Shown: positions 11,245 through 43,015 of the stretch, piece by piece | Layout: each line of letters opens with the position of its first letter | Position numbering within the stretch: position 1 is the stretch's first letter | Sequence record: PP920555.1 | Strand: one strand, 5' to 3' | DNA: 44,245 bases | From: Escherichia phage SM_W22 | Notes under the pieces: generated by a model | What the model was told of the DNA's origin: nothing | Databases searched by the model: none | What the model saw: the letters and a program-made list of their open reading frames with translations, nothing else | Translations under genes and position numbers: made by a program

Positions 11245-11264
11245 TTTGGTCGCTTAAATAGCGA

Positions 11265-11289: not shown

Positions 11290-11315
11290 CCTTTTTTTTA
11301 TTGGAGAATACTACA

Positions 11316-11678
11316 ATGGCTAAAGCACCACTCTTCACACTTGACCCTAAACCAACATTTAAGCTGCCGATTGAGATCCCGCGCCCTGGTGAGAACGAAC
11401 CAGGCAAGATGACGTTTACCGTCCGCCACCGCCCTATCGACGAATTTTCGCAGACCATGCAGGACACCGAACGCAAGTTGTCGGAGTATGACGACAATGA
11501 CCCGGACGGCTTTAACGTTATGGTCGAGGCCATCATGCACGTCGCAGAAGGCTGGAATCTGCCGGACGAATTTAACGCGGAGAACGTCCGCCGCCTGGTG
11601 GTCAACTATCCACGCGCGTTCGGTGTGTTCCACACGTCGTACTATCTCGAACTGATGGGGTTGCGTGAAAAAAACTAA
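11316..11678 (+). CDS. Tail assembly chaperone (lambda G-like)
   Basis: Track ORF trimmed to Met after terminator; acidic protein upstream of tape measure; ends at slippery heptamer A AAA AAC. Confidence 0.65.
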   Translation: MAKAPLFTLDPKPTFKLPIEIPRPGENEPGKMTFTVRHRPIDEFSQTMQDTERKLSEYDDNDPDGFNVMVEAIMHVAEGWNLPDEFNAENVRRLVVNYPRAFGVFHTSYYLELMGLREKN

Positions 11679-11992
11679 TTGAGGCGGCGCGACGCTTTTA
11701 TGGCCCGCCGCCACCCTCCGAAGATTTAGCCGCAAGTTTATGGGGTGCGGCCCCCGAAGATGTTTGTCCGCCTGTTGCGCTATGGCCCGACAACGCGAAG
11801 GTAGTCGCAGTCTTCACAGATTGCTCCACGCAATGGCGCACCGGTTTTGGTGGCGCATACGGCATCGACTACGGCGTGCTGGAGTGGTTATTTAAGATGC
11901 ACGGTATCGAAAACGAACAGCGCGCGTTTAAAGATATCAAGCTAATGGAACGAATAGCGCTTGATGAGATGGCGCAGCAGAACCCCGCATAA
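11316..11992 (+). CDS. Tail assembly chaperone frameshift product (GT-like), predicted -1 frameshift at about 11669-11675
   Basis: Slippery heptamer A_AAA_AAC at last codons of G-like ORF; -1 frame is open for about 105 further codons with no start codon of its own. Confidence 0.5.
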
Positions 11993-11993
11993 T

Positions 11994-12375
11994 GAAGCGG
12001 GACAGGCGGGACGTCCCGTTTTGTCCCGCCTCTGTAAAACTGCATATCTACTCACTTCCACTGCATAAACTCAAAACGGGACAAGCGGGACGTCCCGTTT
12101 TGTCACGCCCTGTAAATATGCATACCTATGCAGATTTCGTGCATAAACCAAACGGGACAGAAAGCGGGACAAACAAGGGGCGGGACAAAGCGGGACAGCA
12201 CCCCATCCCCGCCAGTGCTGCCGCGGTTTTTAGCCGATCGGGACAGCGGGACAGCACCCCAGTCTTTCAGACTAGACGGGGGTCTATGGCCCCCCTCGTC
12301 TGAGACTGAATAAGGTTTGTTTTGAAATCGCTGATACAATATCCATCGGCAACTGCATAAAAAGGGGACTGCATA
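11994..12375. repeat. Iteron- and palindrome-rich noncoding region (copy A of duplicated element at about 12111-12313)
   Basis: About ten CGGGACA units, perfect palindrome CGGGACGTCCCG twice, CTGCATAA motifs; last roughly 200 bp near-identical to 39447-39654. Confidence 0.75.
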
Positions 12376-26854: not shown

Positions 26855-26908
26855 CGTGTTGTCTCCAGGTATTAAAAAAGGCGTCCAAACCGGACACCCT
26901 TAAGATAA

Positions 26909-26935
26909 TGCAACCAATATGATTATGCAACCAAT
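26909..26935. promoter_or_regulatory. Two direct copies of TGCAACCAAT
   Basis: Copies at 26909-26918 and 26926-26935 in intergenic gap upstream of minus gene starting at 26854. Confidence 0.4.
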
Positions 26936-27253
26936 TTACGCATAAAAGTTCGGGTCGCGTGCGACGTCTACCAGGTAAAGGTTGCTTATGCGGTTGCCGT
27001 AGTGCCCTGGAGTGCGCTGGCGGCACACAACGGCGAAGCCTGGAGGGATTGTATTGCCCGTCTCAATAATCCACGCCACGCGTGCGCCAGACAGCGTCTT
27101 GCCGTTGTATTCGATACGTGTTCCGCCATCGGCGGTATTGAGGTTGCCAATTTTGCAGCCGGTGGACTTCAGACGAATGACGCCGGTTTTGCTGTCGTAG
27201 GAGAATAACTGGTTAGTCATTGCAACCGAAAAATCGATGGCTTCGAATGTCAT
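26936..27253 (-). CDS. HNH_3-like domain protein (possibly catalytically degenerate)
   Basis: GNRISNLYLV matches the NNRIENLRLV-type C-terminal HNH signature; expected upstream D-H replaced by R-Q. Confidence 0.4.
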   Translation of the reverse strand: MTFEAIDFSVAMTNQLFSYDSKTGVIRLKSTGCKIGNLNTADGGTRIEYNGKTLSGARVAWIIETGNTIPPGFAVVCRQRTPGHYGNRISNLYLVDVARDPNFYA

Positions 27254-27960
27254 TTTAAATTTTCCTCGTTAACCGCTATCGCGAAGCCGCGCGGAGTGAG
27301 CGACCGGATTAATTTTGTGCGGGCTGATTTGCCTCCGAGGCGACTATACTGCTTCGAGTACCCTTTTTCAACGAATACAGGCTTTTTCTCTGGCATACGA
27401 AAGCCGTTGCCGGTCCATAAGCAGGTCCGCTTCGGATATGAATCGCGCGCGTTGATGTATTCCGGGAACAACGGGTGCACGTCATCCTCCGGCAGATAGC
27501 CGCCATACTCCCACGGATCAAACGAGTGGTCTGGCTTACGCCACTGTGTGGAAAGCACACTGCGCGGATTCTCAATCATATACGGCACTTCGAAGAAGTC
27601 ACCCAGGTAAGCTGCGATCTTCGCGGTGCGCACCGCCTTAAGCTGGAAGGCCGGGTCTTTAGCACGCTTGCGCGGGAAAGCTGGCGCGCCGCTCACTGCC
27701 AGATCCGTACACGGGGGGAAAGCATAAATGATATCCGGCGTACCGAAATCGCCATTCATCGCTCGGTCCACGAAGTCCAGATCGATAAACTCATTGCGAT
27801 ACCGGATCCCGCGACCATAAATCCGGTAGTCAAGGTATGACCCGTGATCAGCTTCGGAGTAGTTAAAACAGTAGCACTTATGCCCCATCTCGGCAGCACG
27901 CTCAATCATCAAGCCGCTGCCGTCAAACAGTGACCAGATTGTCATTTTCGCAATAGTCAT
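27250..27960 (-). CDS. DNA (cytosine-5)-methyltransferase-like protein, short form
   Basis: Motif I-like LFDGSG, motif IV-like FPPCT (PC catalytic Cys), motif VI-like ENP, motif IX-like RSLTPRGF; only 236 aa so target recognition region minimal. Confidence 0.5.
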   Translation of the reverse strand: MTIAKMTIWSLFDGSGLMIERAAEMGHKCYCFNYSEADHGSYLDYRIYGRGIRYRNEFIDLDFVDRAMNGDFGTPDIIYAFPPCTDLAVSGAPAFPRKRAKDPAFQLKAVRTAKIAAYLGDFFEVPYMIENPRSVLSTQWRKPDHSFDPWEYGGYLPEDDVHPLFPEYINARDSYPKRTCLWTGNGFRMPEKKPVFVEKGYSKQYSRLGGKSARTKLIRSLTPRGFAIAVNEENLK

Positions 27961-30359: not shown

Positions 30360-32651
30360 CTACTTGCGGTAGCGATACATGCAATCGCCTTCCGCGGCAA
30401 GCGGGAACCCTTTCGCCCAAATCGGCAGGTCGCACATCAGCGCGCAAAGTTCCTCGACAGTGTAGTCGTCAGTGTCTGGAACTTCGGTTATCAATTCATC
30501 ATGCACCGATAGAACGATTTCATAGCCCGCAGCTTCAACGCCAGGCATTGACCAGGCGAGAATATCACGGCACAACGCCTGTACTATGTTCTCCGTCAGT
30601 TTGCCGCCGTAGGTATACTGGAAGCCCCACTGGCGCGTCGTCTGATTCTCGCCCTGATATTTAATGCGGGTGCTGGTGCGTTTCTTGCCGGTATCTTCGT
30701 CGATCTCGGTCGTCACTGACAGCGCAATGCCTGGATAACTCATAATACGCCCCGACGGCAACTCAATTTTCAACCACCACCCCGCGGCGTTCGGGTCGTC
30801 GCGTTCCTCGTCGAAGGTTGGGTCATGCTTCGCCTTCGTGCGGACTATCTTGAGCGCTTTCTTACCATCCGGGCGAACGTTCGCGCCAGCCCAGTACGCT
30901 TTGCCCGGATTGCGGATTGCACACAACACCGCGTCCTCAAGCTCGGCCCAAAAGGCTACCGTCTTCGGGTGCGCCTCACGCCACATACGTTTGATTGCGT
31001 CACAAGTAAGCCATACGTTTTTCGGCAGTATGTAAGTCGGGCGCTCGTCCTTCTTGCCCGGCTTCGGCGGTCGCTTCGCTTCGTTAATTCGGGCGTACTC
31101 ATAACCCCGTTTAGCCGCTGCCCAAATGTGATCGGGGAATGTGCCCTTCATGACGTCCGCCATCGCGTAAAGGTCGAGGCCCAGGTTTTTAGCGAACTGC
31201 AAGAACGCAGCCACGCCGCCGCCATAGCCAAGTCCCAACTCACACGCCTTACCAATCTGGCGTAGGTCTTTGCGGTTGGCTTTAATGTATTCCGGGTCAA
31301 GGCCGAACATCTTACCGGCAGTTTCACAATAAATATCGCGACCGGCCCTAAACACCATTAGCGCGGTTTTCTCACCAGCGATCCAGGCGAGGCCACGCCC
31401 TTCCACGTTAGAGTAGTCCGCTACGACAAACTTCTTGCCCTTAGCCGGGATAATGCACCCGCGAACGGTCGAGGCTGTTAGCTTAGATATGTCATACGCC
31501 CAGTGCGCGGTCCCGCGTAACAGGGAATTGATGCCGTTGGTGAGCATGTGCGACCGGACCCAAAACGAGACGTCGCTCTCGCCTTCGCGGCGCTTAATCT
31601 TCCCTTCGTGGTCGTCGCTATACTCGCCGCGTGCCAGGTTTTGAGGCTGGAAGCCTTTACCGGCCCAGCGTAGCGTGCGCTTTGCACCACCATACTGAAG
31701 ACACCCACGGCGTCTACCATCGGCAGACAGACCATTAACGAGCGGATTGTACTTAGTCGATGCCGTTGACGACGCGCCGAGGCGCATTTCGATAAGCGCT
31801 TTGCCTTCGTCGGGGAAGTCCGGGTCTTCAAGCAAGTCGTTAAGTGTGGATTTCTGCGCGTTGTGGATCGTGAACGCCGGGGCGATATCACGCAGGATTG
31901 GCAGGAAGTCATTGCCTGTCAGCTTACCGCCAAATCGCTCCCAGGCTTCTTCCTTCAATTCTTCCTTATGCGCCTGTACCGCTTTGATCGCGGCGTTCGC
32001 CAGGTCAACGTCAACGTAGAAGCCGCGGTCGTTAATCAACTGGTCGATGAGCAGGATTTCATCTTCCTTCGGTGAGTTGCCCCAGTCCGGTATGCGCCAG
32101 TAGACTTCACGCATGGCAACAATATCCAGCGCGGCATAGCGCAAGAATTTGGCCCATTCTTCGGGGTGCGTCTCGCGTGTGTAGCGGCGGATTTTGTAGG
32201 TCTTAGGGGTGGGCTTACAGAATCGTTTAATCAGCGCCTTGCCTGCCTTATCTTTCGCGTGCTCTGCGTCAACGCCCAGCACCTGACACTGCATATCGAG
32301 GCTACCAGGCAGCGCGTGGCGAAAGGCCATAATCATTGTGTCTTCGATCTGGCTTACCGGCAGGTCAATACCCCACTTCTCGCGGATAACCAAGCGGTCA
32401 AACAGGAGGCCGTTAGCCATCACGATTTTTGCTTTCTTGCGGGATACCTGACGGAGCGCCTTGCGCAGTTCACGCGGCATTGTTGGGGATTCAGTAGCAT
32501 CCCATATCTGCACGCGGCCCTCGTCGATGGCGTATGTGCAAATCATAATCTCGGTGGTTGGGTGCTCTGCGTAGGCGTACGCCCCTACTTTCTTCAGGTC
32601 CACCCCGCTAAATGTCTCGGTGTCGAGAAACAGGCGTTCGAAGTCTTTCAT
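30360..32651 (-). CDS. DNA polymerase, family A, with 3'-5' exonuclease domain
   Basis: 763 aa; N-terminal exonuclease motif DTETFSG, C-terminal polymerase region with conserved acidic motifs (VHDELI). Confidence 0.9.
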   Translation of the reverse strand: MKDFERLFLDTETFSGVDLKKVGAYAYAEHPTTEIMICTYAIDEGRVQIWDATESPTMPRELRKALRQVSRKKAKIVMANGLLFDRLVIREKWGIDLPVSQIEDTMIMAFRHALPGSLDMQCQVLGVDAEHAKDKAGKALIKRFCKPTPKTYKIRRYTRETHPEEWAKFLRYAALDIVAMREVYWRIPDWGNSPKEDEILLIDQLINDRGFYVDVDLANAAIKAVQAHKEELKEEAWERFGGKLTGNDFLPILRDIAPAFTIHNAQKSTLNDLLEDPDFPDEGKALIEMRLGASSTASTKYNPLVNGLSADGRRRGCLQYGGAKRTLRWAGKGFQPQNLARGEYSDDHEGKIKRREGESDVSFWVRSHMLTNGINSLLRGTAHWAYDISKLTASTVRGCIIPAKGKKFVVADYSNVEGRGLAWIAGEKTALMVFRAGRDIYCETAGKMFGLDPEYIKANRKDLRQIGKACELGLGYGGGVAAFLQFAKNLGLDLYAMADVMKGTFPDHIWAAAKRGYEYARINEAKRPPKPGKKDERPTYILPKNVWLTCDAIKRMWREAHPKTVAFWAELEDAVLCAIRNPGKAYWAGANVRPDGKKALKIVRTKAKHDPTFDEERDDPNAAGWWLKIELPSGRIMSYPGIALSVTTEIDEDTGKKRTSTRIKYQGENQTTRQWGFQYTYGGKLTENIVQALCRDILAWSMPGVEAAGYEIVLSVHDELITEVPDTDDYTVEELCALMCDLPIWAKGFPLAAEGDCMYRYRK

Positions 32652-32876: not shown

Positions 32877-33659
32877 TTAACGGCGGCGACGTTTACGTGG
32901 CGCTTCGTCTTCGTCGTCGTCCTCATCTTCGTCATCGCGTGGCTTACGACGTTTGCGAGGTTTTTCATCTTCCTCATCGTCGTCGTCATCGCGGCGCTTG
33001 GATTTCTTGGACTTGCGCGGCTTGTCATCTTCATCATCGTCATCACGACGTTTTGACTTTTTGGACTTACGCGGGCTTTCGTCTTTGTCGTCGTTGTCCA
33101 GGTCTTCATCGGAGCAAGAAGACCCGCCACCGCCGAAGGCTTCACCGTCATCACGGAAGCGTAAACCCAGCAAGCCAGCACCGAGTCCCTTGCCGTTGGT
33201 GTTGTTCCACGCCCAAATATCAAGGGACACGTTGCAATAACAACCAGAGTAGATCTCCTGGCCTTCAATCTCGTCGCCGTCGATGGTCAGACCTTGTTCA
33301 GTCTGCTTCTCGCCGAGTGACGTTTGAATGATTGGTTGTTTGAACGATTTGGCGTTGATATACAACATGCCTTCGAATTCTTCGGTTACTTCATCGCGCT
33401 CGTCGCCGTCGCGCACTGCGCATTCCTTAGAATCCTGGGCGTAGTGGCGGTCCATCCACTTATCGGCATTCTTCTCGGATTTCAGCTTGTCGGTGAGCAC
33501 TGCGCGCGCTGCCGCTTCCACTTTGTCCACCTGCGGATCTTCTTTATCCAGAAGAATCACGGCACGGTATGCCGGTTTTTGTCCATCCTGTTTAGGGGTA
33601 TCACGTTCCCAAATTTTCAGGAAGCATACGCGCACATTTTTCAGGTTGACTTTAGCCAT
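32877..33659 (-). CDS. Single-stranded DNA-binding protein (DUF2815-like) with repetitive charged C-terminal tail
   Basis: N-terminus MAKVNLKNVRV typical of phage SSB of this family; C-terminus has tandem DDDDEDDKPRKSKKSKRR-like repeats. Confidence 0.55.
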   Translation of the reverse strand: MAKVNLKNVRVCFLKIWERDTPKQDGQKPAYRAVILLDKEDPQVDKVEAAARAVLTDKLKSEKNADKWMDRHYAQDSKECAVRDGDERDEVTEEFEGMLYINAKSFKQPIIQTSLGEKQTEQGLTIDGDEIEGQEIYSGCYCNVSLDIWAWNNTNGKGLGAGLLGLRFRDDGEAFGGGGSSCSDEDLDNDDKDESPRKSKKSKRRDDDDEDDKPRKSKKSKRRDDDDDEEDEKPRKRRKPRDDEDEDDDEDEAPRKRRRR

Positions 33660-35893: not shown

Positions 35894-36322
35894 TTAATCT
35901 TCCAGTTCGAAATAGGTTTCGACGATTTCTTTTAGCTCTTTGTGGAAGTCTTCGACGTCGTCATCTTCCAGCTTGGCGATTGATTTGATCTCGAACGATT
36001 CCAGCAGGTCGTCGAATTCGTCGTTCGCATCGTCGTCGTCACCACCGGCAATAATCGCGGCATACTGTTTGATCTCGTCGCGCATCTCTGCCAGCGGATC
36101 GGCATCTTTCTTGCCTTTGCCTTTTGCCGGTGCTTTTTTAGACTTAGCCGGTTTTTCGTCTTCAGCTTCATCGTCGTCATCTTCGACAACTTCTTTTTTG
36201 GCCTTAGACGGCTTCTTATCTTCCTGTTTACCAACGGCAGCGCCAACGGTTTCATAATGCTTTGCAATGGTTTCCAGTGCTACTACTCCGCGAGTGATCA
36301 GGTTTACGATTTGCTCAAACAT
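35894..36322 (-). CDS. Acidic early protein (first gene of leftward early operon)
   Basis: Track ORF trimmed to Met at 36322; about 142 aa with long D/E runs interrupted by a K-rich segment. Confidence 0.5.
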   Translation of the reverse strand: MFEQIVNLITRGVVALETIAKHYETVGAAVGKQEDKKPSKAKKEVVEDDDDEAEDEKPAKSKKAPAKGKGKKDADPLAEMRDEIKQYAAIIAGGDDDDANDEFDDLLESFEIKSIAKLEDDDVEDFHKELKEIVETYFELED

Positions 36323-36727
36323 GGTATATCTCCGATTGGTTAAGTTTAGGTGTCGGCAGTTAACTTCGTCGGTGGCCTTAACATATTGCCAGGTTACGCG
36401 TTCTCCCGTTCGGGTAGTGGACCTGGTTATATAATCACGGTTGGGAATCCTGACACTTCGATCCGGCCCCTGCGTTGCCCCTCTCCAGTTTGCGTCCTGC
36501 ATCCTGTCGACGGAGTGAATGATAGATTGGTTGCAGGATGGGTGTCAACAACTAATTTCAAAAAAAAAAAAGCGCCGAGGCAAAATGCACCGGCGCTAAC
36601 CAATAAGAGACAATGAGACGGGAATTATTATTACACGCGTGCGCGCCCGTTTCAATATCCAAAGGATTTGACACCTTGTGGTTTTAGGTGTAGTTTCATT
36701 GGTCATTAACCAACAGGAGACTGAATT
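36323..36727. promoter_or_regulatory. Divergent early control region
   Basis: About 400 bp noncoding between divergent operons; contains TTGACA -35-like hexamer, ATTGGTTGCA motif (36526-36535), A12 tract and hairpin. Confidence 0.45.
36559..36597 (-). terminator. Terminator-like hairpin with 12-A tract (T12 on minus strand)
   Basis: AGCGCCG-13 nt loop-CGGCGCT preceded on plus strand by A12; oriented to stop leftward transcription. Confidence 0.35.
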
Positions 36728-37057
36728 ATGAATATCAAAGAAGCAATTGAAGTGTTATCTAATGCAATCCGCGGCGAAGCGGGTAAATCCTGGTATTACA
36801 CAAATGCGGTGGATACTCTGTTATTTGAAGTGTCCAGATTATCGCGTGCTGAGAAGGAGCTTACCGCGAAGCTGGAATTGCTCAACGGCACGGCAGCAAG
36901 CAAGCTGCAAAAACACAATGAAGAAATGGAAGAATACAAAAAACAGGTTATCCGTCTACGTGAGGAAGGTAAATCCTGGGCGATGATTGCCGAGTTGACC
37001 GGAATTAATCAGAGCACAGTGCGCTCCTGGGTACGCAATAATAAAACTTCTAAGTAA
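36728..37057 (+). CDS. HTH DNA-binding protein (putative transcriptional regulator)
   Basis: 109 aa; C-terminal helix-turn-helix-like segment SWAMIAELTGINQSTVRSWV; first gene of rightward operon; RBS CAGGAGA. Confidence 0.55.
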   Translation: MNIKEAIEVLSNAIRGEAGKSWYYTNAVDTLLFEVSRLSRAEKELTAKLELLNGTAASKLQKHNEEMEEYKKQVIRLREEGKSWAMIAELTGINQSTVRSWVRNNKTSK

Positions 37058-37067
37058 GGCCACGGCA

Positions 37068-39332
37068 ATGAGCTTAATTAAATTCGCTGTAACAAGACCC
37101 GCTAAAAAAGGCGAAAAAGCCAGGGCGGAAAACTTCCAGATGACGACCGATGAATTTTTCGAATTTATCAAAGATGCGAAAGAGATATCGTCGGTGCATA
37201 TCAACAAGACGGAAGATAAAGCCGAGTATGCGCGCCGCAAGCGTAAGGCCGATGGCATCGTGGCGTATACCAGTGACGGATTGCGTCGTAAGACCAGTGC
37301 GGTGGACCTCTCGATCCTGTTCTTTGATATTGACCGCACCGACACCCGCACCCTGCGCCGCTGCCGTAAGGCGTTCATCGACTCGGGTCTGGAACACGTA
37401 TTTCACACCACCACCGGCGACCGCCACCCGCTGAAGGGCGGCACGCGTTGCGCCCGTTTCCTGGTGCTCACTGACAAGCCTGTACCGGCTGAAGACCTGG
37501 GCCGCGTCCAGTATGCACTATTACACCAACTGGGTCTGTCAGATGTGGACTTCGACGATTGCACGAAAGATACAAACCGCCTGATGTACCTGCCACACCA
37601 GCAGTCCGTTATTAAGTGCCACTATGGCAAGCGCGCCAATGTGCGTCGTCTACTCCGTCGGGCGGACAAGCTGGGGGTGGAAAAAGAGGAAGTACGCCGC
37701 GAGCTTACCCAGGGCGACGACGCAGTGGCAGACGGCATTCTGGACTGGTGCTTCCAGGCCGGATTCGAGGAGTTATCTTCTGGTCGCGGTTATGAAGTGC
37801 CGTGCCCGAACGAACATCTGCACAGCGGCGAAGGGTCGACGGCTATCATGGTCAAGGATGGCGAGATCCGTTTCAAGTGTATGCACACCGGCAACGAGTG
37901 TTGCTCGGAGCTGAACAGACACCAGCACCTGGCGCTACGTCTTATCGGGATCCCGGACCACCTGAACGTCGAGCCACACAACATGTCCCGTAAGCAAATC
38001 GCCGCCATCCTCCCCGGACTGGACGACGAGGAAGTGGAATCGTGCTATGAACATATCGTTGATGCGGTCGGAGACGGCGACGAGTACGGCGGATGTACCG
38101 ACGCTGACCTGGATAACGAACCGGTCGCACTGTTCAGTAAGCACGACCCGATCATAGAAGGCCTGGTCAACTTCAAATCGACCTGGTATATGGCTGGCGA
38201 GTCGAACATCGGTAAATCGTTCTACGTGCTGGGGCAAATGGGTGCGGTTGCCGCGGGGATTCCGTTCGGCGGTGCGAAGGTCGTCCAGTCCCATTGCTTC
38301 TATTTCGACGCGGAAGGTGGCGAAGCCTCCAACCAGCGTAAGGAAGCATTGCAGATCAAATACGAGCACGACCTCGACAAGCTGCACATTATCGATCTGC
38401 AATCACGCGGCTGGGATATCACCAGCAAATCCGGCTTGCGTGAAGTTATCAGCTTCATCAACCGCACCGCTAACGGCGAACCGGTTGGCCTGGTGGCGTT
38501 CGACTCACTCAACCAGACGGTTGCGCTGCGGTCCGCCGATGCCAAACCGTTCGACGAGAACAACGCCAGCGATATGGGCGAAGTGGTCAAGGCGCTGAAG
38601 GCCATCGCGGAAAATACAGGCGGCAGTGCGGGCGTCATCCACCACCCGGCGAAGGGTGCAAACGGCAGCAGATCACCCCGCGGGTCCGGCGCGCTGCATG
38701 GTGCTGTCGATTCTGCGTTCTTCCTGGAGCAACCGGACGACAATCAACCAGGCCAATTGAACCTGTATCACGAAAAGGCACGTAACGGCATCAAGCAAGC
38801 GCCGCGTGGCTTCGTCCTGCTCAAGTGCAAGGTGAAGGTAGATCTCCGCAAGTCCGAGGCGTTCGAATCGCACCAGTCCACCAGCACCGGGCCTGACTTC
38901 GGCGACGTCGTTGCCGGTTGGGACGTCAAGCCGATTGCCTCCACGCCACGCGACGAGACTCTGTACCTCGTACCGGTCGCCCTGGCACCGTTCGCCATCG
39001 AACAGGCGAAGGCCGCAGGAAAAGCCGCGGTTAAGGAAGAGAACACCGCAGGACCGCGCACCGAAAAAGAAAAGGTACTTTACGCGGCCCTGGAAAAACT
39101 GATGGAAGATAACCCGGACCATACTGGTTTCAGTAAATCGGCAATCGTCCGCCAGGCGGGATTGGCAAAAGGTGGAACATCGACGAAGGCAATCGACGAT
39201 ATGGTCGAGCGCGGCGTACTCGGTTTTTATACCGATCCGCACACCGGGGCCATCTATGGGTCGTCTAATATCGTCATAAAAACAAACATACCAACCACAC
39301 TTTCGGCGACCGACGACGACTTAAAAGATTAA
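37068..39332 (+). CDS. DNA primase / replicative helicase (primase-polymerase N-domain plus RecA-like ATPase)
   Basis: 754 aa; N-terminal region with DxD (FFDIDRTD) and Cys/His cluster, central Walker A-like GESNIGKS. Confidence 0.7.
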   Translation: MSLIKFAVTRPAKKGEKARAENFQMTTDEFFEFIKDAKEISSVHINKTEDKAEYARRKRKADGIVAYTSDGLRRKTSAVDLSILFFDIDRTDTRTLRRCRKAFIDSGLEHVFHTTTGDRHPLKGGTRCARFLVLTDKPVPAEDLGRVQYALLHQLGLSDVDFDDCTKDTNRLMYLPHQQSVIKCHYGKRANVRRLLRRADKLGVEKEEVRRELTQGDDAVADGILDWCFQAGFEELSSGRGYEVPCPNEHLHSGEGSTAIMVKDGEIRFKCMHTGNECCSELNRHQHLALRLIGIPDHLNVEPHNMSRKQIAAILPGLDDEEVESCYEHIVDAVGDGDEYGGCTDADLDNEPVALFSKHDPIIEGLVNFKSTWYMAGESNIGKSFYVLGQMGAVAAGIPFGGAKVVQSHCFYFDAEGGEASNQRKEALQIKYEHDLDKLHIIDLQSRGWDITSKSGLREVISFINRTANGEPVGLVAFDSLNQTVALRSADAKPFDENNASDMGEVVKALKAIAENTGGSAGVIHHPAKGANGSRSPRGSGALHGAVDSAFFLEQPDDNQPGQLNLYHEKARNGIKQAPRGFVLLKCKVKVDLRKSEAFESHQSTSTGPDFGDVVAGWDVKPIASTPRDETLYLVPVALAPFAIEQAKAAGKAAVKEENTAGPRTEKEKVLYAALEKLMEDNPDHTGFSKSAIVRQAGLAKGGTSTKAIDDMVERGVLGFYTDPHTGAIYGSSNIVIKTNIPTTLSATDDDLKD

Positions 39333-39345
39333 ATTCTGCGCGCGT

Positions 39346-39442
39346 TGGTTGCCGATATGTGGATCCCCATATCGCTAAAAGACTAAATTTTGCGCGCATT
39401 GGTTGCCATTTTGAGTGTTTTTATCCAGTCGCATTGGTTGCC
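39346..39442. repeat. Three direct copies of GCGC(G/A)TTGGTTGCC-containing repeat flanking a GGATCC-centred palindrome
   Basis: TAAATTcTGCGCGCgTTGGTTGCC and TAAATTtTGCGCGCaTTGGTTGCC 54 bp apart, third GCATTGGTTGCC copy downstream; GATATG-tggatcccc-CATATC hairpin between. Confidence 0.6.
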
Positions 39443-39446
39443 GTGT

Positions 39447-39654
39447 AGTGTAAATATAATGAATAGTTATGCAGTTTTGCTGCATAAAGTAAGCGGGACA
39501 AAAAGCGGGACAAACAAGGGGCGGGACAAAGCGGGACAGCACCCCCGTCCCGCCAGTGCTGCCGCGGTTTTTAGCCGATCGGGACAGCGGGACAGCACCC
39601 CAGTCTTTCAGACTAGACGGGGGTCAATGGCCCCCCTCGTCTGAGACTGAATAA
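39447..39654. repeat. Copy B of duplicated roughly 205 bp iteron element (GCGGGACA repeats)
   Basis: Aligns by eye at roughly 90-95% identity with 12111-12313, including five GCGGGACA units and a GC-rich terminal hairpin. Confidence 0.75.
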
Positions 39655-39804
39655 AATCCGGAGATTGCAAAATACACGGCAACATGATGCGAAGTGCGGT
39701 CGTCGATGAACTAGGCAACCAATGCGGGTTGTATTATGCTGAGTGAAAAATGCAGTTTGCAGCCACAGCAGATAGCGATCAACTTTTTCATACGCGTGAT
39801 TAAT

Positions 39805-39844
39805 ATTGGTTGCATCCGTGCCAGCACCCTGCTATATTGGTTGC
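39805..39844. promoter_or_regulatory. Two direct copies of ATTGGTTGCA upstream of 39869 gene
   Basis: Copies at 39805-39814 and 39835-39844, 30 bp apart; a further GCAACCAAT at 39714-39723. Confidence 0.4.
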
Positions 39845-39868
39845 ACATCAACATGAGGACTGAACAAA

Positions 39869-40345
39869 ATGAAATTTCCAGTAATCATCAAAGACGGTAA
39901 ATCAACTATCACCTTCACCAGCAACGACCACGGCACTTACGAGAGCGGCGCGGCTTGCATGTCCACCCTGGAAGATATGATGATTCGTGTTAATTCAGGT
40001 AAAGCCTCAATTATTACCACCCTCGCGGAGAGTACCAAAATGAAAGCACTAATCTGGAATTACTCACTGGCCCTGGCAAAGCTGAACGAAGCGAAGGCGC
40101 TGAACGGCAACGTAGACCGTGCGCGCCAGTTTGCGACACTGGCACACCAGTCAATCATGTGTGCGCTAGACGATATGGACGCCAGCATGGATGGCCTGGG
40201 TCCGCTGCGTAAGGCAATCCATGAATACGCGCTGGCATTCTCCCGTGAGCGCCTGGCTTATCGCTTCGGTATTGGCGAGAAGGCAGTGACAAACGTCGCC
40301 AGGATTAAAGCCCAGCGTGAGCTATTCGCCCAGCTTGCGAAATAA
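39869..40345 (+). CDS. Hypothetical protein
   Basis: 158 aa ORF with RBS GAGGA; no motif recognised. Confidence 0.5.
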   Translation: MKFPVIIKDGKSTITFTSNDHGTYESGAACMSTLEDMMIRVNSGKASIITTLAESTKMKALIWNYSLALAKLNEAKALNGNVDRARQFATLAHQSIMCALDDMDASMDGLGPLRKAIHEYALAFSRERLAYRFGIGEKAVTNVARIKAQRELFAQLAK

Positions 40346-40354
40346 GGGGCTAAA

Positions 40355-40624
40355 ATGGGACGTAGACGAGCAAAACAGCTTTCGTGGCATATTCCCCTGC
40401 ATTGCATACGAATATGGGCTGAGAATGCAGTTGAGGGCGATTCTGTGTACTGGTGCTATCGCGACGACGTAAAGCCGTTGACGCAGACTCGCTACTTGCA
40501 CCAGTTCGCAGCACAACACGATTTCAGGGTGCGGACTTCCTTGCAACCAATGGGGATTCGTATTACATTACGCCGGAAGCCCGCCGTTGAGCGGGTAGGC
40601 AAACACTGGAGACTGAGCAAATGA
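40355..40624 (+). CDS. Hypothetical protein
   Basis: 89 aa basic ORF; contains TTGCAACCAAT motif near its 3' end. Confidence 0.4.
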   Translation: MGRRRAKQLSWHIPLHCIRIWAENAVEGDSVYWCYRDDVKPLTQTRYLHQFAAQHDFRVRTSLQPMGIRITLRRKPAVERVGKHWRLSK

Positions 40625-41166
40625 AATTACTATTCCGCCGCAACCACGACGGCTGTATCGTGGAGCCGGTCCAGGTAATGGCCTTGACTAAGAACGTGCT
40701 CCTATGCCACCAGGCAAGCGGCAAAGTATTCCGCACGCCAACCAGCACGCTGCCGCAGTTCTTCACAGTCCACACCCACGATATTGAGCGCGGCGATGTG
40801 CCGCGTAATATTCGCGACGGGCAACTGTGGGTCGTCGAGTACACCTCCCAGCACGGCTTGCGTATGCAGACCCGCAAGGGCGGCGTATCGGGCAACATGA
40901 TTAGGGGTATGACGTACTTCGGGCTAATCCACTACGAGCGCGTGGGGCGCAAGTACAGACTCCGCAAGTCGCAGCCAGCCTATGCGACCTACGACGCCCA
41001 CCAGGTGCAAGCGAAGATGGGCCGTGCCATACACGAAATCGTCAATCGCTTTGATGCCGTCACGAATGCACAGCGCCATGCGCAGGAATATGGCGTGGGG
41101 CTTATCCGGGTAGAACAAGACGGCAGCATGAAAGCTATCGACCCGCGCTCGGTGATTCTGAAATGA
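40621..41166 (+). CDS. Hypothetical protein
   Basis: 181 aa ORF, ATGA-coupled to upstream ORF. Confidence 0.5.
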   Translation: MKLLFRRNHDGCIVEPVQVMALTKNVLLCHQASGKVFRTPTSTLPQFFTVHTHDIERGDVPRNIRDGQLWVVEYTSQHGLRMQTRKGGVSGNMIRGMTYFGLIHYERVGRKYRLRKSQPAYATYDAHQVQAKMGRAIHEIVNRFDAVTNAQRHAQEYGVGLIRVEQDGSMKAIDPRSVILK

Positions 41167-42016: not shown

Positions 42017-42258
42017 TTATCTCCGTCCTGTTGTTTGTTATCATAGGGGCTTCGTCCCTGTTTAACGTGTATGCGCCGTCCGTCCAGGATGGCATTTTAG
42101 GCCGGGTGCTGTATCTGTTAACGGCAATGACCTGTATTGTCGGTCTGTTGCAAACGGGAGACGTATCTGACGCCACCTGGACCGCGTTAATCTGGCTGTT
42201 TGCATTGCGCACACTGCGTAATGCTGTTTTGAATGGGGTAAAACATGCGATTCAGTGA
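42013..42258 (+). CDS. Second holin/antiholin-like membrane protein
   Basis: 81 aa, two to three hydrophobic segments; overlaps neighbours (ATGA). Confidence 0.45.
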   Translation: MIISVLLFVIIGASSLFNVYAPSVQDGILGRVLYLLTAMTCIVGLLQTGDVSDATWTALIWLFALRTLRNAVLNGVKHAIQ

Positions 42259-42736
42259 CAACGGTCTGAGATTTACGGCAGCATGGGAGCAATTCAGCCC
42301 AGTGCCGTATTTCGCGACTAAGAAAGAGCAGGCCCGCGGCCTGTATACCTGGGGCTATGGTCACACCGGCACTAATCCGCCGCGGAGCATTACCCGTGCG
42401 GAAGCACTGGAGCTACTCAAGCGCGACGTGGCGTATGCCGAAAACTGGGTGAACAAGTACGCACACCCGAGCATCAATCAGGCGCAATTCGACGCGCTGG
42501 TGGACCTGGTTATCAATGCCGGTCCTGGTCCGATCATGCCGGACGACGTCGCTGGTGACTTCGACGATGCGATCCGCCTGGGTGACTGGGCAAAAGTCCG
42601 TGCTACATTGCCACAATTCCGCAAGCAAGGCGGGGTGGTGCTCAAGGGGCTTGTCCGTCGTGCAATCGGCAGGCAAGCGCTATTCGATGGTAAGCAGTGG
42701 GACGTTGCCGAGCGAATCGGTCGTAACGCTGCATAA
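42245..42736 (+). CDS. Endolysin, lysozyme (GH24-like)
   Basis: 163 aa; TWGYGHTG and FDALVDLVINAG segments match phage lysozyme family signature with N-terminal catalytic Glu. Confidence 0.8.
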   Translation: MRFSDNGLRFTAAWEQFSPVPYFATKKEQARGLYTWGYGHTGTNPPRSITRAEALELLKRDVAYAENWVNKYAHPSINQAQFDALVDLVINAGPGPIMPDDVAGDFDDAIRLGDWAKVRATLPQFRKQGGVVLKGLVRRAIGRQALFDGKQWDVAERIGRNAA

Positions 42737-42752
42737 TACGAGGTGACACGAT

Positions 42753-42920
42753 ATGTTAAAAAGTATTCTTGATCATAATGCGGACGCGCTCGCCGCGCTG
42801 GCTAAAACCGAAGACCCTGGCGCACGCGCTATCATCGCGGACACTATCAGCCATGCAGGCGTCTTTGACGCGAAGCTGCCTAGCCCGCCGCCACAGGAAG
42901 AATCTGACCCAGTGACGTAA
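42753..42920 (+). CDS. Small hypothetical protein (coordinates approximate)
   Basis: About 55 codons after AGGTGA RBS, ending just before terminator; below track cutoff. Confidence 0.3.
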   Translation: MLKSILDHNADALAALAKTEDPGARAIIADTISHAGVFDAKLPSPPPQEESDPVT

Positions 42921-42926
42921 ACAATC

Positions 42927-42951
42927 AAGCCCGGTTAATTCCGGGCTTTTT
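42927..42951 (+). terminator. Intrinsic terminator after lysis cassette
   Basis: AGCCCGG-ttaatt-CCGGGCT hairpin followed by T6. Confidence 0.75.
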
Positions 42952-43015
42952 TATTTATTGCCCCAGTACCGTGGTATATTGCATCCAGGTCATCTCAATC
43001 TGGAAGTAAATTAAT

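What the first reader, a model, noticed from the sequence alone, without database searches (positions are those of the whole stretch)
39333..39480. Origin-like repeat cluster immediately after primase gene
Three direct repeats containing GCGC(G/A)TTGGTTGCC (two are 24 bp units TAAATTyTGCGCGCrTTGGTTGCC, 54 bp apart) flank a palindrome centred on GGATCC, followed by AT-rich sequence. Direct repeats plus palindrome plus AT-rich stretch next to primase is classic replication-origin architecture.
Basis: partly seen in the sequence, partly recalled or inferred. Interest (0 to 1): 0.55.

Follow-up and report, generated by a model that had tools for sequence, protein, structure and literature searches.

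The report
Phage replication-origin-like repeat module after primase
The repeats are real, but they are the variable outer edge of a conserved, probably replication-origin module lying just after a coliphage's helicase-primase gene; its real core is next door and is copied once more in the tail genes.

Summary
The window is a complete Dhillonvirus (HK578/SO-1-like) coliphage genome. The described repeats exist: three direct CGC(G/A)TTGGTTGCC sites, a 22-bp palindrome and an AT-rich stretch, far beyond chance.

They are not the best origin-repeat candidates. TTGGTTGC is the most enriched word in the genome (20 copies; 1.9 expected). It mostly overlaps the -35/spacer of promoter-like sites. In close relatives the segment carries 1-3 copies in either orientation. 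The palindrome is present in only 8 of 18.

The conserved core lies just downstream (39444-39649). It comprises an AT-rich element, seven CGGGAC(A) repeats (one inverted) and an invariant GC-rich hairpin. A 93%-identical 196-nt copy sits before the tape-measure gene (12118-12313). These two loci correspond to "region B" and "region A" in the SO-1 GenBank record.

Across relatives the layout is kept, but the inner repeat switches (CGGGACA, GTGGCAA, GTGCCAA, GGTGCCA, GGGGAGA, AGGGATA and others). It switches together with the predicted winged-helix domain at the C-terminus of the helicase-primase.

Best reading: an origin of the kind known from staphylococcal SaPI islands, satellite phage P4 and plasmid pRN1. 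TTGGTTGCC sites would be accessory operator-like sites. No experiment exists. Interest is moderate: a new member of a known kind.

The parts
36728..37057 (+). Small helix-turn-helix protein gene (109 aa, called 'transposase' in relatives), first gene of the operon. It is a candidate binder of TTGGTTGC.
   Evidence: Pfam HTH_23 and Sigma70_r4_2 over residues 65-105. NCBIfam gives only sub-threshold sigma region-4 and IS-type HTH matches. It is present upstream of the primase in all Dhillonvirus-like relatives but absent from eiAU.
37068..39332 (+). Helicase-primase gene (754 aa). It combines an N-terminal primase-polymerase domain of the archaeo-eukaryotic primase (AEP) fold, a Cys/His cluster, a RepA-like RecA-fold helicase and a C-terminal winged helix.
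   Evidence: AAA_25 over residues 357-531. Weak sequence match to RSF1010 RepA, 1g8y. The AF2 N-terminal model (pLDDT 84) best matches the cyanophage S-2L PrimPol AEP domain, E 1.5e-5. Invariant D87/D89, H120, D163 and C246/H252/C271/H273/C279.
39063..39278 (+). Coding region of the predicted C-terminal winged-helix domain (about residues 666-737), the proposed binder of the inner repeats.
   Evidence: AF2 shows H-H-H-strand-strand topology with pLDDT 79-88 for most of the domain (75 at its C-terminal end). All top Foldseek PDB hits are winged-helix proteins (MarR, IclR, H1, ORC), but E is 5e-3 or weaker. Helix 2/helix 3 residues change with the repeat type.
39322..39407 (+). Two 32-nt units starting 54 nt apart (39322-39353 and 39376-39407), each with a TTGGTTGCC site and a copy of the primase 3' end and stop codon. 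The first unit is followed by the palindrome. This stretch is an insertion/duplication polymorphism.
   Evidence: D2, 91%. The 54-nt stretch is absent from the 113-nt, 97-nt and 77-nt forms in relatives.
39353..39374 (.). 22-bp palindrome CGATATGTGGA|TCCCCATATCG, not conserved.
   Evidence: I14. In LM40P1 it is a perfect palindrome with a changed centre, GAATTC. It is present in only 8 of 18 relatives.
39430..39442 (+). The TTGGTTGCC site (CGCATTGGTTGCC) next to the AT-rich element. This is the one copy kept in all 17 close relatives (77-nt form L034 has two inverted copies). It overlaps GTTGCCGTGTA (39437-39447), which is an inverted repeat of 39673-39683.
   Evidence: (I11).
39444..39490 (.). 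AT-rich element. It contains TGAATAGTTATGCA (39460-39473) and the inverted repeat TTATGCAG-N5-CTGCATAA (39467-39487). It is the proposed DNA-unwinding element.
   Evidence: GC 32.5%. GAATAGTTATGCA is identical in Shemara, L028, L030 and L033, whose primases are 37-44% identical. The arms are invariant in 19 sequences, and the loop occurs in both orientations.
39491..39594 (+). Inner repeat array. CGGGACA lies at 39494, 39506, 39522 and 39532, inverted GTCCCG at 39547-39552, and CGGGACA at 39580 and 39588.
   Evidence: The repeats are invariant in 19 aligned copies while the spacers vary. The layout is conserved across genera while the repeat sequence changes.
39601..39649 (+). GC-rich imperfect hairpin (CAGTCT...AGACGGGGG-loop-CCCCCCTCGTCT...AGACTG) with no U/T tract after it.
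   Evidence: Fold. Almost invariant in 19 copies. Other genera have a hairpin of different sequence at the same place. It is not terminator-like.
39673..39683 (-). TACACGGCAAC, the inverted partner of 39437-39447. The core CACGGCA(A/G)CA is kept downstream of the hairpin in all genera examined.
   Evidence: (I11).
39714..39726 (-). Inverted copy of CGCATTGGTTGCC. It brackets the core together with the upstream sites.
   Evidence: (I4, I5). It is conserved in LM40P1 as a 15-17-nt inverted repeat but absent from L034.
39803..39845 (+). Promoter-like site of the downstream gene (39869-40345): two ATATTGGTTGCA sites, -35 TTGCAT (39809-39814), a 17-nt spacer and -10 TATATT (39832-39837).
   Evidence: (D6). 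The same geometry appears in LM40P1, L034, L042 and L043. The strict consensus scan did not call it.
11994..12313 (+). 'Region A', a paralogous module between the tail chaperone genes and the tape-measure gene. It has 79-nt units x2.1 (11998-12159) made of CGGGAC repeats and AT-rich TGCATAA elements, then the 196-nt copy of the region B core (12118-12313) including the hairpin.
   Evidence: It is annotated as repeat_region 'region A' in SO-1. An analogous region A with lineage-specific motifs exists in eiAU.

Best explanation
The segment 39333-39480 is the variable upstream flank of a replication-origin-like module spanning about 39333-39730. The module lies immediately 3' of the gene of a self-loading helicase-primase.

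**Shown here**
- The protein has an AEP-fold primase-polymerase domain, a RepA-like helicase domain and a predicted C-terminal winged helix.
- The module has a fixed layout: 1-3 TTGGTTGCC sites, an AT-rich element with a small palindrome, four direct, one inverted and two direct CGGGAC(A) repeats, then a GC-rich hairpin.
- A second copy of the core lies in the tail operon (region A).
- Across relatives the layout stays while the inner repeat sequence switches together with the helix-turn-helix residues of the winged helix.

**Inferred**
- The winged-helix domains bind the inner repeats and the protein oligomerises there.
- It melts the neighbouring AT-rich element, loads itself as the replicative helicase and primes with its own AEP domain.
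- The phage DNA polymerase (30360-32651) extends.
- The hairpin may act as an assembly or priming signal, as the stem-loop origin of pRN1 does.
- Region A would be a second origin or a distant cis element like the P4 cis replication region (crr).

- The TTGGTTGCC repeats are sites for a different, unidentified sequence-specific protein. In Dhillonviruses the candidate is the small HTH protein encoded just upstream.
- Elsewhere in the genome the same motif overlaps the -35/spacer of at least five promoter-like sites.
- At the module these sites bracket the core. They probably modulate origin firing or read-through transcription rather than define the origin.
- The palindrome is a dispensable insertion.
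For: **Position and repeats**
- The 536-bp gap lies directly after the helicase-primase ORF.
- CGGGACA occurs 20 times against 6 expected. Fifteen of these lie in two clusters only.
- TRF finds a 12-nt period at 39491-39538 and 79-nt units at 11998-12159.

**Conservation pattern typical of protein-binding sites**
- In 19 aligned A and B copies the repeats, the TATGCA/TGCATAA arms and the hairpin are invariant.
- Spacers and loops vary, with 1-nt indels.

**Same layout, different repeat, in other genera**
- GGGGAGA in Shemara, AGGGATA in L028, TCCGACA in L030, GGGGATG in L033 and ACTCGCAA in L035.
- Relative positions are conserved: 3-4 direct, 1-2 inverted, then 2 direct about 45-55 nt later.
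- In these genera the repeats flank the AT-rich GAATAGTTATGCA element.

**Switching within the Dhillonvirus-like clade**
- Here TTGGTTGCC, the AT-rich element and the hairpin stay constant while the inner repeat switches with winged-helix helices 2 and 3.
- SKSAI../T(S/N)T(K/T)AI goes with CGGGACA.
- SRRAIL/SSTKPIND goes with GTGGCAA (L041, and L042 predicted beforehand).
- SARQIM/STSKPVYD goes with GTGCCAA.
- SK(S/A)AIM/ST(S/T)TAINAL goes with GGTGCCA (L044, L045).

**Protein folds**
- Winged-helix fold of the C-terminus.
- AEP PrimPol fold of the N-terminus.
- AAA_25/RepA-like helicase.
- The winged helix is the most divergent domain between Shemara, L028 and L030: 49-65% identity against 81-89% for the enzymatic domains.

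**Independent lineage**
- Eiauvirus eiAU has a different C-terminal domain. It also has a region B after the primase and a region A before the tape-measure gene, sharing their own motifs.

**Published analogues**
- SaPI Rep has a C-terminal winged helix, 6-12 iterons immediately downstream of rep, an AT-rich centre and iterons in both orientations (PMC9371898).
- pRN1 has a small repressor, a prim-pol/helicase/winged-helix protein and a stem-loop origin downstream of the gene, an arrangement also noted in phages (PMC4234260).

**TTGGTTGC as a separate, genome-wide motif:**
Against: - No experimental evidence of origin activity exists for any relative, and none was found in the paper library.
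- The winged-helix fold matches are weak (best E 5e-3).
- The covariation between winged helix and repeat is confounded by shared descent. L041/L042 and L044/L045 are close relatives of each other. Other phage proteins were not screened for the same covariation.
- The module always runs in the direction of transcription. It sits at the head of the long rightward gene block (lysis, packaging, structural genes), and its copy sits inside the tail operon. An RNA-level element would show the same pattern.
- The hairpin is invariant in sequence, so its structure cannot be tested by covariation.
- A group of relatives with 43-44% identical primases (L024-L027, L029, L031) has no such module after the gene.
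- No DnaA boxes were found, and no IHF consensus match was noticed by eye in the conserved GAATAGTTATGCA element (no scan was run).
- GC skew follows transcription direction and says nothing about an origin.
Confidence: 0.55

Rival explanations
1. One reading: the three TTGGTTGCC direct repeats and the palindrome are themselves the origin iterons or cruciform. The initiator binds them and opens the AT-rich stretch that follows.
For: - The repeats are real, clustered and adjacent to the AT-rich element.
- At least one TTGGTTGCC site is kept at this place in all Dhillonvirus-like relatives.
- Related TTGGNNGC sites with a lineage-specific central dinucleotide recur in the module of other lineages: TTGGCAGC in L038, TTGGCCGC in L039, and TTGGCTGC in L040, Shemara and L033.
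- In eiAU, GCAACCAAC is the main repeat of regions A and B.
- The sites bracket the core in opposite orientations.
Against: - The motif is genome-wide, with 20 copies, mostly at promoter-like sites.
- Copy number (1-3), orientation and spacing vary between close relatives, and the palindrome is absent from 10 of 18.
- L028 and L030 keep the winged helix and the module but have no TTGGNNGC site.
- The motif stays constant while the winged helix changes.
- Region A of this window has none.
Confidence: 0.12
2. A transcription-control module rather than an origin. The repeats would act in one of two ways. Either they bind a regulator on DNA, or they act in the RNA as an antitermination or processing element comparable to lambda nut or HK022 put. 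One copy would sit at the start of the rightward lysis/packaging/structural gene block and one inside the tail operon. TTGGTTGC sites would be operators of the same circuit.
For: - Both copies run in the direction of transcription. Region B precedes the promoter of the rightward block, and region A lies between the tail chaperone and tape-measure genes.
- TTGGTTGC overlaps the -35/spacer of several promoter-like sites, including the one at 39803-39845.
- A perfect TATAAT lies at 39455-39460.
- The core folds significantly better than shuffles (z -3.69).
- Lineage-specific recognition elements present in two copies per genome are also what nut sites look like (own knowledge).
Against: - No Rfam match was found even at E 1.
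- The consensus scan called no promoter in 39200-39950, and the TATAAT is not kept in LM40P1, L021 or L034.
- No U-tract follows the hairpin, and there is essentially no covariation support (term -0.44).
- Repeats occur in both orientations, and eiAU carries part of its module inverted.
- Wherever the module occurs it follows the helicase-primase gene (relatives L024-L031 have the gene without it), and its repeat tracks that protein's winged helix.
Confidence: 0.2
3. A packaging (pac) or recombination site. The short repeats would be bound by the small terminase or a recombinase. P1 pac has hexamer repeats on both sides of the cut site (own knowledge).
For: - The Dhillonvirus BF9 packages by a P1-type headful mechanism (PMC10059673).
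- Several GenBank records are linearised inside region B, and the eiAU record starts inside region A.
- The 3' half of region B in this window is identical to region A, which suggests gene conversion between the two.
Against: - The module lies 4.6 kb from the small terminase gene (23-595).
- The record starts coincide with predicted ORF starts (39736 is the ATG of a predicted small ORF) or with repeat-induced assembly breaks, not with mapped ends.
- Two pac sites 27 kb apart would be odd.
- The repeat type tracks the primase winged helix.
Confidence: 0.05
4. Small protein-coding genes, as annotated in relatives. ORFs 39390-39644 and 11992-12303 share a frame and a stop codon.
For: - Both ORFs exist and end at the equivalent TGA.
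- Bas84 and Shemara annotate small hypothetical proteins here.
Against: - One-nucleotide indels between relatives break the frame inside the shared part.
- Conservation follows the 7-nt repeats and hairpin, not codons.
- There is no shared start codon.
Confidence: 0.02

Closest known systems
SaPI (staphylococcal pathogenicity island) Rep-ori replicons
   Same: - The helicase initiator has a C-terminal winged-helix domain.
- 6-12 short (5-6 nt) iterons lie immediately downstream of the initiator ORF, with an AT-rich region and iterons in both orientations.
- Iteron sequence and initiator specificity differ between related elements.
- In SaPI5 the primase is fused to Rep (PMC9371898).
   Different: - Here the helicase is a RecA-fold RepA/AAA_25 type rather than the AAA+ type of SaPI Rep, and the primase is an AEP PrimPol fused at the N-terminus.
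- In region B of this phage the AT-rich element has inner repeats on one side only and TTGGTTGCC sites on the other.
- A conserved GC-rich hairpin follows.
- A second copy sits 27 kb away.
- Binding and origin activity are untested.
Satellite phage P4 alpha protein with ori and crr (own knowledge, not checked in a paper here)
   Same: - One polypeptide combines primase, helicase and a C-terminal winged-helix origin-binding domain.
- Short repeats occur in both orientations in two separate clusters several kb apart, one made of tandem longer units. Compare the 79-nt units of region A.
   Different: - P4 alpha uses a different primase fold and an SF3 helicase.
- The sequences are unrelated.
- Whether region A is needed in cis, as crr is, is unknown.
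Plasmid pRN1 orf56/orf904 replicon and similar phage replication proteins (e.g. Bordetella phage BIP-1)
   Same: - A small DNA-binding repressor gene is followed by a prim-pol/helicase/winged-helix protein gene.
- The origin lies in the non-coding stretch just downstream of that gene and contains an essential stem-loop (PMC4234260).
   Different: - The pRN1 origin is a roughly 100-nt stem-loop without described iterons, and its helicase is SF3.
- Here short repeats dominate, and the hairpin is about 49 nt.
RSF1010/IncQ oriV with RepA, RepB' and RepC (own knowledge)
   Same: - The helicase domain belongs to the same family as RSF1010 RepA (AAA_25; weak 1g8y match).
- IncQ oriV combines iterons, a GC-rich stretch, an AT-rich stretch and hairpin priming signals.
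   Different: - In IncQ the three functions are separate proteins, and the iterons are 20-22 bp.
- Here they appear fused in one protein, and the repeats are 7 nt.
GenBank annotation of Sodalis phage SO-1 (GQ502199): repeat_region 'region A' and 'region B'
   Same: - These are the same two loci: region A at 11214-11597 before the tape-measure gene and region B at 40178-40657 after the helicase/primase.
- They were already noted as made of direct, inverted and palindromic repeats and as similar to each other.
   Different: - It is a sequence annotation only.
- It contains no dissection into repeat classes, no comparison across genera and no link to the winged-helix domain.

Membership tests
Iteron origin served by a self-loading primase/helicase initiator (SaPI Rep-ori, P4 alpha-ori, pRN1 ORF904 type) | The initiator is a helicase, with or without a primase, that carries a sequence-specific DNA-binding (winged-helix) domain. 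| tested here: met
   AAA_25 helicase. AEP PrimPol fold, E 1.5e-5. The C-terminal winged-helix topology has pLDDT 79-88 for most of the domain (75 at its C-terminal end), and all top PDB fold hits are winged-helix proteins, but E is 5e-3 or weaker.
Iteron origin served by a self-loading primase/helicase initiator (SaPI Rep-ori, P4 alpha-ori, pRN1 ORF904 type) | Several short repeats lie immediately downstream of the initiator ORF, in both orientations, next to an AT-rich stretch. | tested here: met
   Six CGGGACA and one inverted GTCCCG at 39494-39594. The AT-rich element at 39444-39490 has GC 32.5%. In region A and in Shemara, L028, L030 and L033 the repeats flank the AT-rich element on both sides.
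Iteron origin served by a self-loading primase/helicase initiator (SaPI Rep-ori, P4 alpha-ori, pRN1 ORF904 type) | Cognate specificity: the repeat sequence differs between relatives and matches changes in the initiator's DNA-binding domain. | tested here: met
   Four repeat types match four winged-helix types within the Dhillonvirus-like clade, and six more occur in other genera. One assignment (L042) was predicted from the winged helix before the DNA was read. The test is confounded by shared descent.
Iteron origin served by a self-loading primase/helicase initiator (SaPI Rep-ori, P4 alpha-ori, pRN1 ORF904 type) | The initiator binds the repeats specifically and melts the origin. | not testable with these tools
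   Needs EMSA, footprinting or permanganate probing.
Iteron origin served by a self-loading primase/helicase initiator (SaPI Rep-ori, P4 alpha-ori, pRN1 ORF904 type) | The segment supports replication in cis when the initiator is supplied. | not testable with these tools
   Needs plasmid amplification, marker-frequency or 2D-gel experiments.
P4-type two-site origin (ori plus crr) | A second cluster of the same repeats lies kilobases away in the same genome. | tested here: met
   Nine CGGGACA copies lie at 11998-12253, and the 196-nt repeat is 93% identical. This holds in SO-1 and LM40P1 and, with other motifs, in eiAU. The cis requirement was not tested.
DnaA-dependent (oriC-like) origin | A cluster of DnaA boxes TTATNCACA. 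| tested here: not met
   There is no exact box in the window. One-mismatch sites number 28 against 26 expected, and none lies in region B.
Lambda-type origin | Iterons lie inside the initiator gene. | tested here: not met
   All repeats lie after the stop codon at 39330-39332.
Operator sites of a phage transcription regulator (for the TTGGTTGC motif) | The same motif recurs at several promoters, overlapping the -35, spacer or -10. | tested here: met
   There are 20 copies, at least 16 in non-coding DNA. They occur in pairs at 6403/6416, 25382/25394, 26910/26927, 33716/33732 and 39806/39837. TTGCA(A/T) serves as the -35, 17 nt from a TAnnnT. The positions are conserved in LM40P1.
Operator sites of a phage transcription regulator (for the TTGGTTGC motif) | A cognate DNA-binding protein is identified. 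| tested here: inconclusive
   The gp47-like HTH co-occurs with TTGGTTGC in all Dhillonvirus-like phages. However, eiAU and L035 have the motif with an XRE-type protein and no gp47 homologue.
Known structured RNA or intrinsic terminator | A match to a curated RNA family, or a hairpin followed by a U-tract, or covariation support. | tested here: not met
   Rfam gave nothing at gathering score or at E 1. No U-tract follows the hairpin. Only 2 of 38 pairs show compensatory change, and the covariation term is -0.44.
Protein-coding small ORF | The reading frame is preserved among relatives. | tested here: not met
   One-nucleotide indels lie within the shared part.

The most novel reading that the evidence does not exclude
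Regions A and B together would form a two-site replication system in a virulent siphovirus, that is, an origin plus a distant cis element or two origins. A fast-switching code between the winged helix and the inner repeat would set replicon specificity between co-infecting relatives. A second, independently co-evolving site family (TTGGNNGC) would tie the origin to the phage's promoters through one regulator, for example by looping around the origin core.
Probability: 0.25. Interest if true: 0.6.

Novelty: new member of a known kind. Interest (0 to 1): 0.42.

Why it matters
Dhillonviruses and their relatives (Cornellvirus, Eiauvirus and many uncultured phages) are common coliphages and Salmonella phages. 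They are used in reference collections and in therapy work, and their origins of replication are unmapped.

If the reading is right, it has four uses:

- It gives the origin, the initiator domain that reads it, and a natural table of cognate initiator-repeat pairs. That table could guide phage engineering and phage-dependent replicons, and could help explain replication incompatibility between related phages.
- It shows that several small 'hypothetical protein' ORFs annotated in these two regions of public genomes are probably spurious.
- It flags a genome-wide operator-like motif, TTGGTTGC, whose binder is unknown.
- For the scan itself, it shows that a locally striking repeat can be the least conserved part of a module.

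Tried and rejected
- **DnaA boxes.** No exact box and no enrichment at one mismatch.
- **ArgR box.** TGAATAGTTATGCA resembles the ARG box as I recall it (12 of 14 positions; two copies 21 nt apart in Shemara and L028). In the window such matches are not enriched: 3 against 1.1 expected, reached by 11% of shuffles. It remains only a weak lead.
- **Known RNAs.** Rfam at gathering score and at E 1, and tRNA/tmRNA searches, found nothing.
- **Intrinsic terminator.** The hairpin has no U-tract. The consensus scan called no promoter in 39200-39950.
- **GC skew as an origin indicator.** It follows transcription direction only.
- **Coding.** Rejected because of frame-breaking indels.
- **Physical genome ends in region B.** Several records are linearised there, but at a predicted ORF start. 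A Dhillonvirus is reported to package by headful with a permuted genome.
- **gp47 as the universal TTGGTTGC binder.** eiAU has 21 copies of the motif and no gp47 homologue. No other shared small DNA-binding protein was found among proteins common to the window and eiAU.
- **Protein searches.** A search with the C-terminal 154 aa alone gave one trivial hit. A PDB sequence search with a profile gave no primase or winged-helix hit.
- **Region A of a GTGGCAA-type phage.** Pattern scans of viral and metagenome contigs found nothing. The test of whether region A switches its repeat together with region B could therefore not be done within the Dhillonvirus-like clade.
- **MITE or transposon reading.** This was suggested by the 13-bp inverted repeats bracketing about 300 bp next to a gene called 'transposase'. 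It was rejected because region A lacks those ends and the 109-aa protein is only an HTH.
Full report
**What the window is**

The 44,245-bp window is a complete genome of a Dhillonvirus (HK578/SO-1-like siphovirus of E. coli). The stretch 37000-40400 is 90-94% identical to more than 140 such phages.

Gene order:
- Packaging, head and tail genes lie on the + strand (1 to about 24.1 kb).
- A DNA-metabolism block lies on the - strand (24.2-36.5 kb).
- A rightward block follows. It starts with a 109-aa helix-turn-helix protein (36728-37057) and a 754-aa helicase-primase (37068-39332). After a 536-bp gap come small genes, lysis genes and a phosphoesterase.

The finding lies at the start of that gap.

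**Checking the observation**

All stated features are present.
- CGCGTTGGTTGCC lies at 39341, and CGCATTGGTTGCC at 39395 and 39430.
- Two longer units start 54 nt apart (39322-39353 and 39376-39407, 91% identical). They include the last primase codons and the stop codon.
- The palindrome CGATATGTGGA|TCCCCATATCG lies at 39353-39374.
- GC reaches a minimum of 32.5% at 39440-39479.
- TTGGTTGC occurs 20 times against 1.9 expected, reached by 0 of 100 shuffles. The exact 13-mer occurs only in this gap.

- There is an inverted copy at 39714-39726 and two ATATTGGTTGCA copies at 39803-39845.
- An array of CGGGACA repeats starts at 39494.
- A 196-nt stretch (39459-39654) is repeated at 12118-12313 with 93% identity.

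ATTGGTTGCA is the most enriched 10-mer of the genome. At least 16 of the 20 TTGGTTGC copies lie in non-coding DNA, which makes up roughly a tenth of the genome (after correcting ORF starts by eye).

Most copies come in pairs: 6403/6416, 25382/25394 (inverted), 26910/26927, 33716/33732 and 39806/39837. In several pairs the 3' part, TTGCA(A/T), sits where a -35 hexamer would be, 17 nt from a TAnnnT. Examples are TTGCAT-17-TATATT at 39809-39837 and TTGCAA-17-TATATT at 6380-6441 on the - strand. The same geometry recurs in relatives.

The positions are conserved in LM40P1, whose primase is 83% identical. The copies after the primase gene end in C rather than A (TTGGTTGCC) and lack this promoter geometry.

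Eighteen Dhillonvirus-like sequences were compared.

| Form | Sequences | TTGGTTGCC-type sites | Palindrome |
|---|---|---|---|
| 167 nt, as in the window | 7 | three; in L001, L012 and L022 one or two are mutated to TTGGTCGCC | present |
| 110 nt | 1 (LM40P1) | two | present, centre changed to GAATTC, perfectly palindromic |
| 97 nt | 1 | one | absent |
| 77 nt | 1 (L034) | two, inverted | absent |

The extra 54 nt of the long form duplicate the 3' end of the primase gene. Further relatives (66-70% identical primases) have two sites 15 nt apart, or three in mixed orientation.

The palindrome and the particular 'three direct repeats' arrangement are therefore dispensable. At least one TTGGTTGCC site next to the AT-rich element is always kept.

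**The conserved core**

Nineteen copies were aligned: region B of 16 phages and region A of three. The invariant columns fall into three groups.
- The arms TATGCA/TGCATAAA of a small palindrome inside the AT-rich element.
- The CGGGACA repeats: four direct, one inverted GTCCCG, then two direct.
- CAGTCTTTCAGACTAGACGGGGG...CCCCC..CGTCTGAGACTG, a GC-rich imperfect hairpin at 39601-39649 (fold).

Spacers and loops vary and carry 1-nt indels. These indels also rule out the small ORFs 39390-39644 and 11992-12303, which share a frame and a stop codon.

The 7-nt loop of the small palindrome occurs as GTTTTAT/GTTTTGC in some phages and as the reverse complement ATAAAAC in others. The element has therefore flipped during evolution.

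As single-stranded DNA the core folds better than shuffles (z -3.69). The consensus fold has almost no covariation, and there is no Rfam match.

**Region A**

- The segment between the tail chaperone genes and the tape-measure gene (11994-12375) holds nine CGGGACA copies.
- It has 79-nt units (x2.1) in which repeat clusters alternate with AT-rich TGCATAA elements.
- It then carries the 196-nt copy of the core, including the hairpin.
- The SO-1 GenBank record already marks both loci as repeat regions 'A' and 'B' that resemble each other.
- A-A identities between phages (83-90%) exceed B-B identities (74-85%).
- In this window the 3' half of B is identical to A, which points to gene conversion.

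**Relatives in other genera**

The primase was used to fetch relatives from GenBank phages, IMG/VR and Logan/ENA assemblies.

The same layout follows the primase gene in phages whose primases are only 37-48% identical:
- an AT-rich element (identical GAATAGTTATGCA in five lineages);
- 3-4 direct repeats, 1-2 inverted, and two more about 45-55 nt later;
- a GC-rich hairpin of different sequence;
- CACGGCA(A/G)CA, then a sigma-70-like promoter.

| Lineage | Inner repeat |
|---|---|
| Shemara | GGGGAGA |
| L028 | AGGGATA |
| L030 | TCCGACA |
| L033 | GGGGATG |
| L035, L039 | ACTCGCAA / TTGCGA |

One group of relatives (L024-L027, L029, L031) lacks the module. Their primase gene is followed by terminators and convergent genes.

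Eiauvirus eiAU, whose primase has a different C-terminal domain, has a 900-bp region B and a region A before its tape-measure gene. These share their own motifs: GCAACCAAC, CGCCCCG and a hairpin.

**The protein and the covariation**

- The N-terminal 350 residues model with pLDDT 84. They match the AEP domain of cyanophage S-2L PrimPol (E 1.5e-5), followed by other AEP polymerases.
- The middle is AAA_25, the RSF1010 RepA family.
- Residues about 666-737 model as helix-helix-helix-strand-strand with pLDDT 79-88 for most of the domain (75 at its C-terminal end). All top fold hits are winged-helix DNA-binding domains, although the E-values are weak.
- Between Shemara, L028 and L030 the enzymatic domains are 81-89% identical, but the winged helix is only 49-65% identical, and their repeats differ.

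Within the Dhillonvirus-like clade, TTGGTTGCC, the AT-rich element, the hairpin and the upstream gp47-like gene all stay the same. There the inner repeat changes with helices 2 and 3 of the winged helix.

| Winged-helix helix 2 / helix 3 | Inner repeat | Loci |
|---|---|---|
| SKSAI(V/L)(R/K)QAG / T(S/N)T(K/T)AI | CGGGACA | window, LM40P1, L034 |
| SRRAIL / SSTKPIND | GTGGCAA | L041, L042 |
| SARQIM / STSKPVYD | GTGCCAA | L043 |
| SK(S/A)AIM / ST(S/T)TAINAL | GGTGCCA | L044, L045 |

The L042 assignment was predicted from its winged helix before its DNA was read. This is the pattern expected of a cognate initiator-repeat pair. It is weakened by shared descent, and other proteins were not screened.

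**A second site family**

TTGGNNGC also varies by lineage: TT in Dhillonvirus, eiAU and L035; CA in L038; CC in L039; CT in Shemara, L033 and L040; none in L028 or L030. It does not track the winged helix.

Its binder is unknown.
- The gp47-like HTH is a candidate in Dhillonviruses.
- All other lineages instead have an XRE-type HTH at that position.
- eiAU has 21 TTGGTTGC copies without a gp47 homologue.

**Best explanation**

The gap after the helicase-primase gene is most likely the phage's replication origin, or one of two. It is of the kind described for three systems:
- SaPI Rep: winged helix, 6-12 iterons immediately downstream of rep, AT-rich centre (PMC9371898).
- pRN1 ORF904: small repressor, prim-pol/helicase/winged-helix protein and a stem-loop origin downstream of the gene, also noted in phages (PMC4234260).
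- P4 alpha with ori and crr (my own knowledge).

Shown here are the anatomy, the conservation pattern, the folds and the covariation. Inferred steps are binding of the winged helix to the inner repeats, self-loading, melting of the AT-rich element, self-priming, and a role for the hairpin.

The palindrome is an insertion of no conserved role. I put this at 0.55.

**Rivals**

- **DNA- or RNA-level transcription-control element (0.2).** It fits the co-orientation with transcription and the placement at the head of, and inside, the late gene block. It lacks promoter conservation, a terminator, an Rfam match and covariation support.
Its lineage-specific relatives in other genera keep it alive. The genome-wide spread, the variability, and L028/L030 count against it.
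- **A pac or recombination site (0.05)** and **coding ORFs (0.02)** are unlikely.

**Novelty and score**

No paper in the library describes these repeats or an origin for these genera. The only prior notice found is the SO-1 GenBank annotation.

The logic is well known from SaPIs, P4 and pRN1. I therefore rate this as a new member of a known kind, with some unusual traits:
- an AEP PrimPol, a RepA-type helicase and a winged helix in one chain;
- a second copy in the tail operon;
- two independently co-evolving site families.

Interest is 0.42.

Noticed in passing
window 12118-12313 vs 39459-39654: A 196-nt direct repeat (93% identical) lies 27 kb apart. The 3' half of the region B copy is identical to region A in this phage, whereas SO-1 (75%) and LM40P1 (83%) are more diverged. 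This suggests recent gene conversion between the two loci.
   Followed up: yes
window, whole genome (e.g. 6403/6416, 25382/25394, 26910/26927, 33716/33732, 36527, 39806/39837): TTGGTTGC is the most enriched word in the genome (20 copies) and also in the distantly related Edwardsiella phage eiAU (21 copies). It mostly occurs in pairs overlapping promoter-like -35/spacer regions. Its binding protein is unidentified.
   Followed up: partly
window, whole genome: ACGGCA(A/G)C occurs 50 times, against about 3.4 expected from base composition. It has a strong strand bias (38 on the + strand, 12 on the - strand) that does not reverse in the - strand gene block. AACGGCAAC is also enriched in eiAU. One copy (39676) belongs to the conserved CACGGCAACA element after the hairpin. 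This could be a polar signal (Chi-like or priming-related) or a codon effect; it was not resolved.
   Followed up: partly
window 39467-39487 and relatives (alignment A2, columns 10-28): The 7-nt loop of the palindrome TTATGCA-N7-TGCATAA occurs as GTTTTAT/GTTTTGC in some phages and as its reverse complement ATAAAAC in others. This is a 'flip-flop' inversion of the whole element, consistent with hairpin formation or template switching at this site.
   Followed up: partly
window 5855-6440, tandem repeat 5890-6111: A perfect 111-nt tandem duplication (2.0 copies) lies inside a - strand ORF (about 5855-6382, no Pfam match). This ORF sits in an insertion of roughly 570 nt relative to phage Bas84. 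It has its own TTGGTTGCA-pair promoter-like site at 6394-6441. The neighbouring - strand gene 5047-5811 is an Nmad5 (nucleotide-modification-associated) protein.
   Followed up: partly
window 39390-39644, 39736-39900, 11992-12303; Bas84 38970-39197, 39317-39481, 11149-11620; Shemara 38192-38904: Small 'hypothetical protein' ORFs annotated across regions A and B in public records are probably spurious. Relatives carry frame-breaking 1-nt indels, and conservation follows the repeats, not codons.
   Followed up: yes
L004 4835/4856, L028 5310/5331, L030 5174/5195; window 39460-39473: TGAATAGTTATGCA resembles the E. coli ArgR box as I recall it (12 of 14 positions). In Cornellvirus-like relatives it occurs twice exactly 21 nt apart, the spacing of paired ARG boxes. 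In the window such matches are not statistically enriched.
   Followed up: partly
L037 (eiAU, KF772233) 26895-27791 and 42121-43015 plus 1-221: The eiAU GenBank record is linearised inside its region A. Its region B contains two inverted copies of GGGGCACTTATTGATTTATAAGG about 230 nt apart, together with CGCCCCG repeats.
   Followed up: no
window 32904-33048 and 36017-36191 (- strand genes): Runs of TTCGTC/ATCGTC repeats encode acidic D/E-rich tracts in the ssDNA-annealing protein gene and in the 202-aa gp46-like gene (35894-36502). The latter is the first gene of the leftward operon and is conserved in eiAU and Shemara. Its function is unknown.
   Followed up: no
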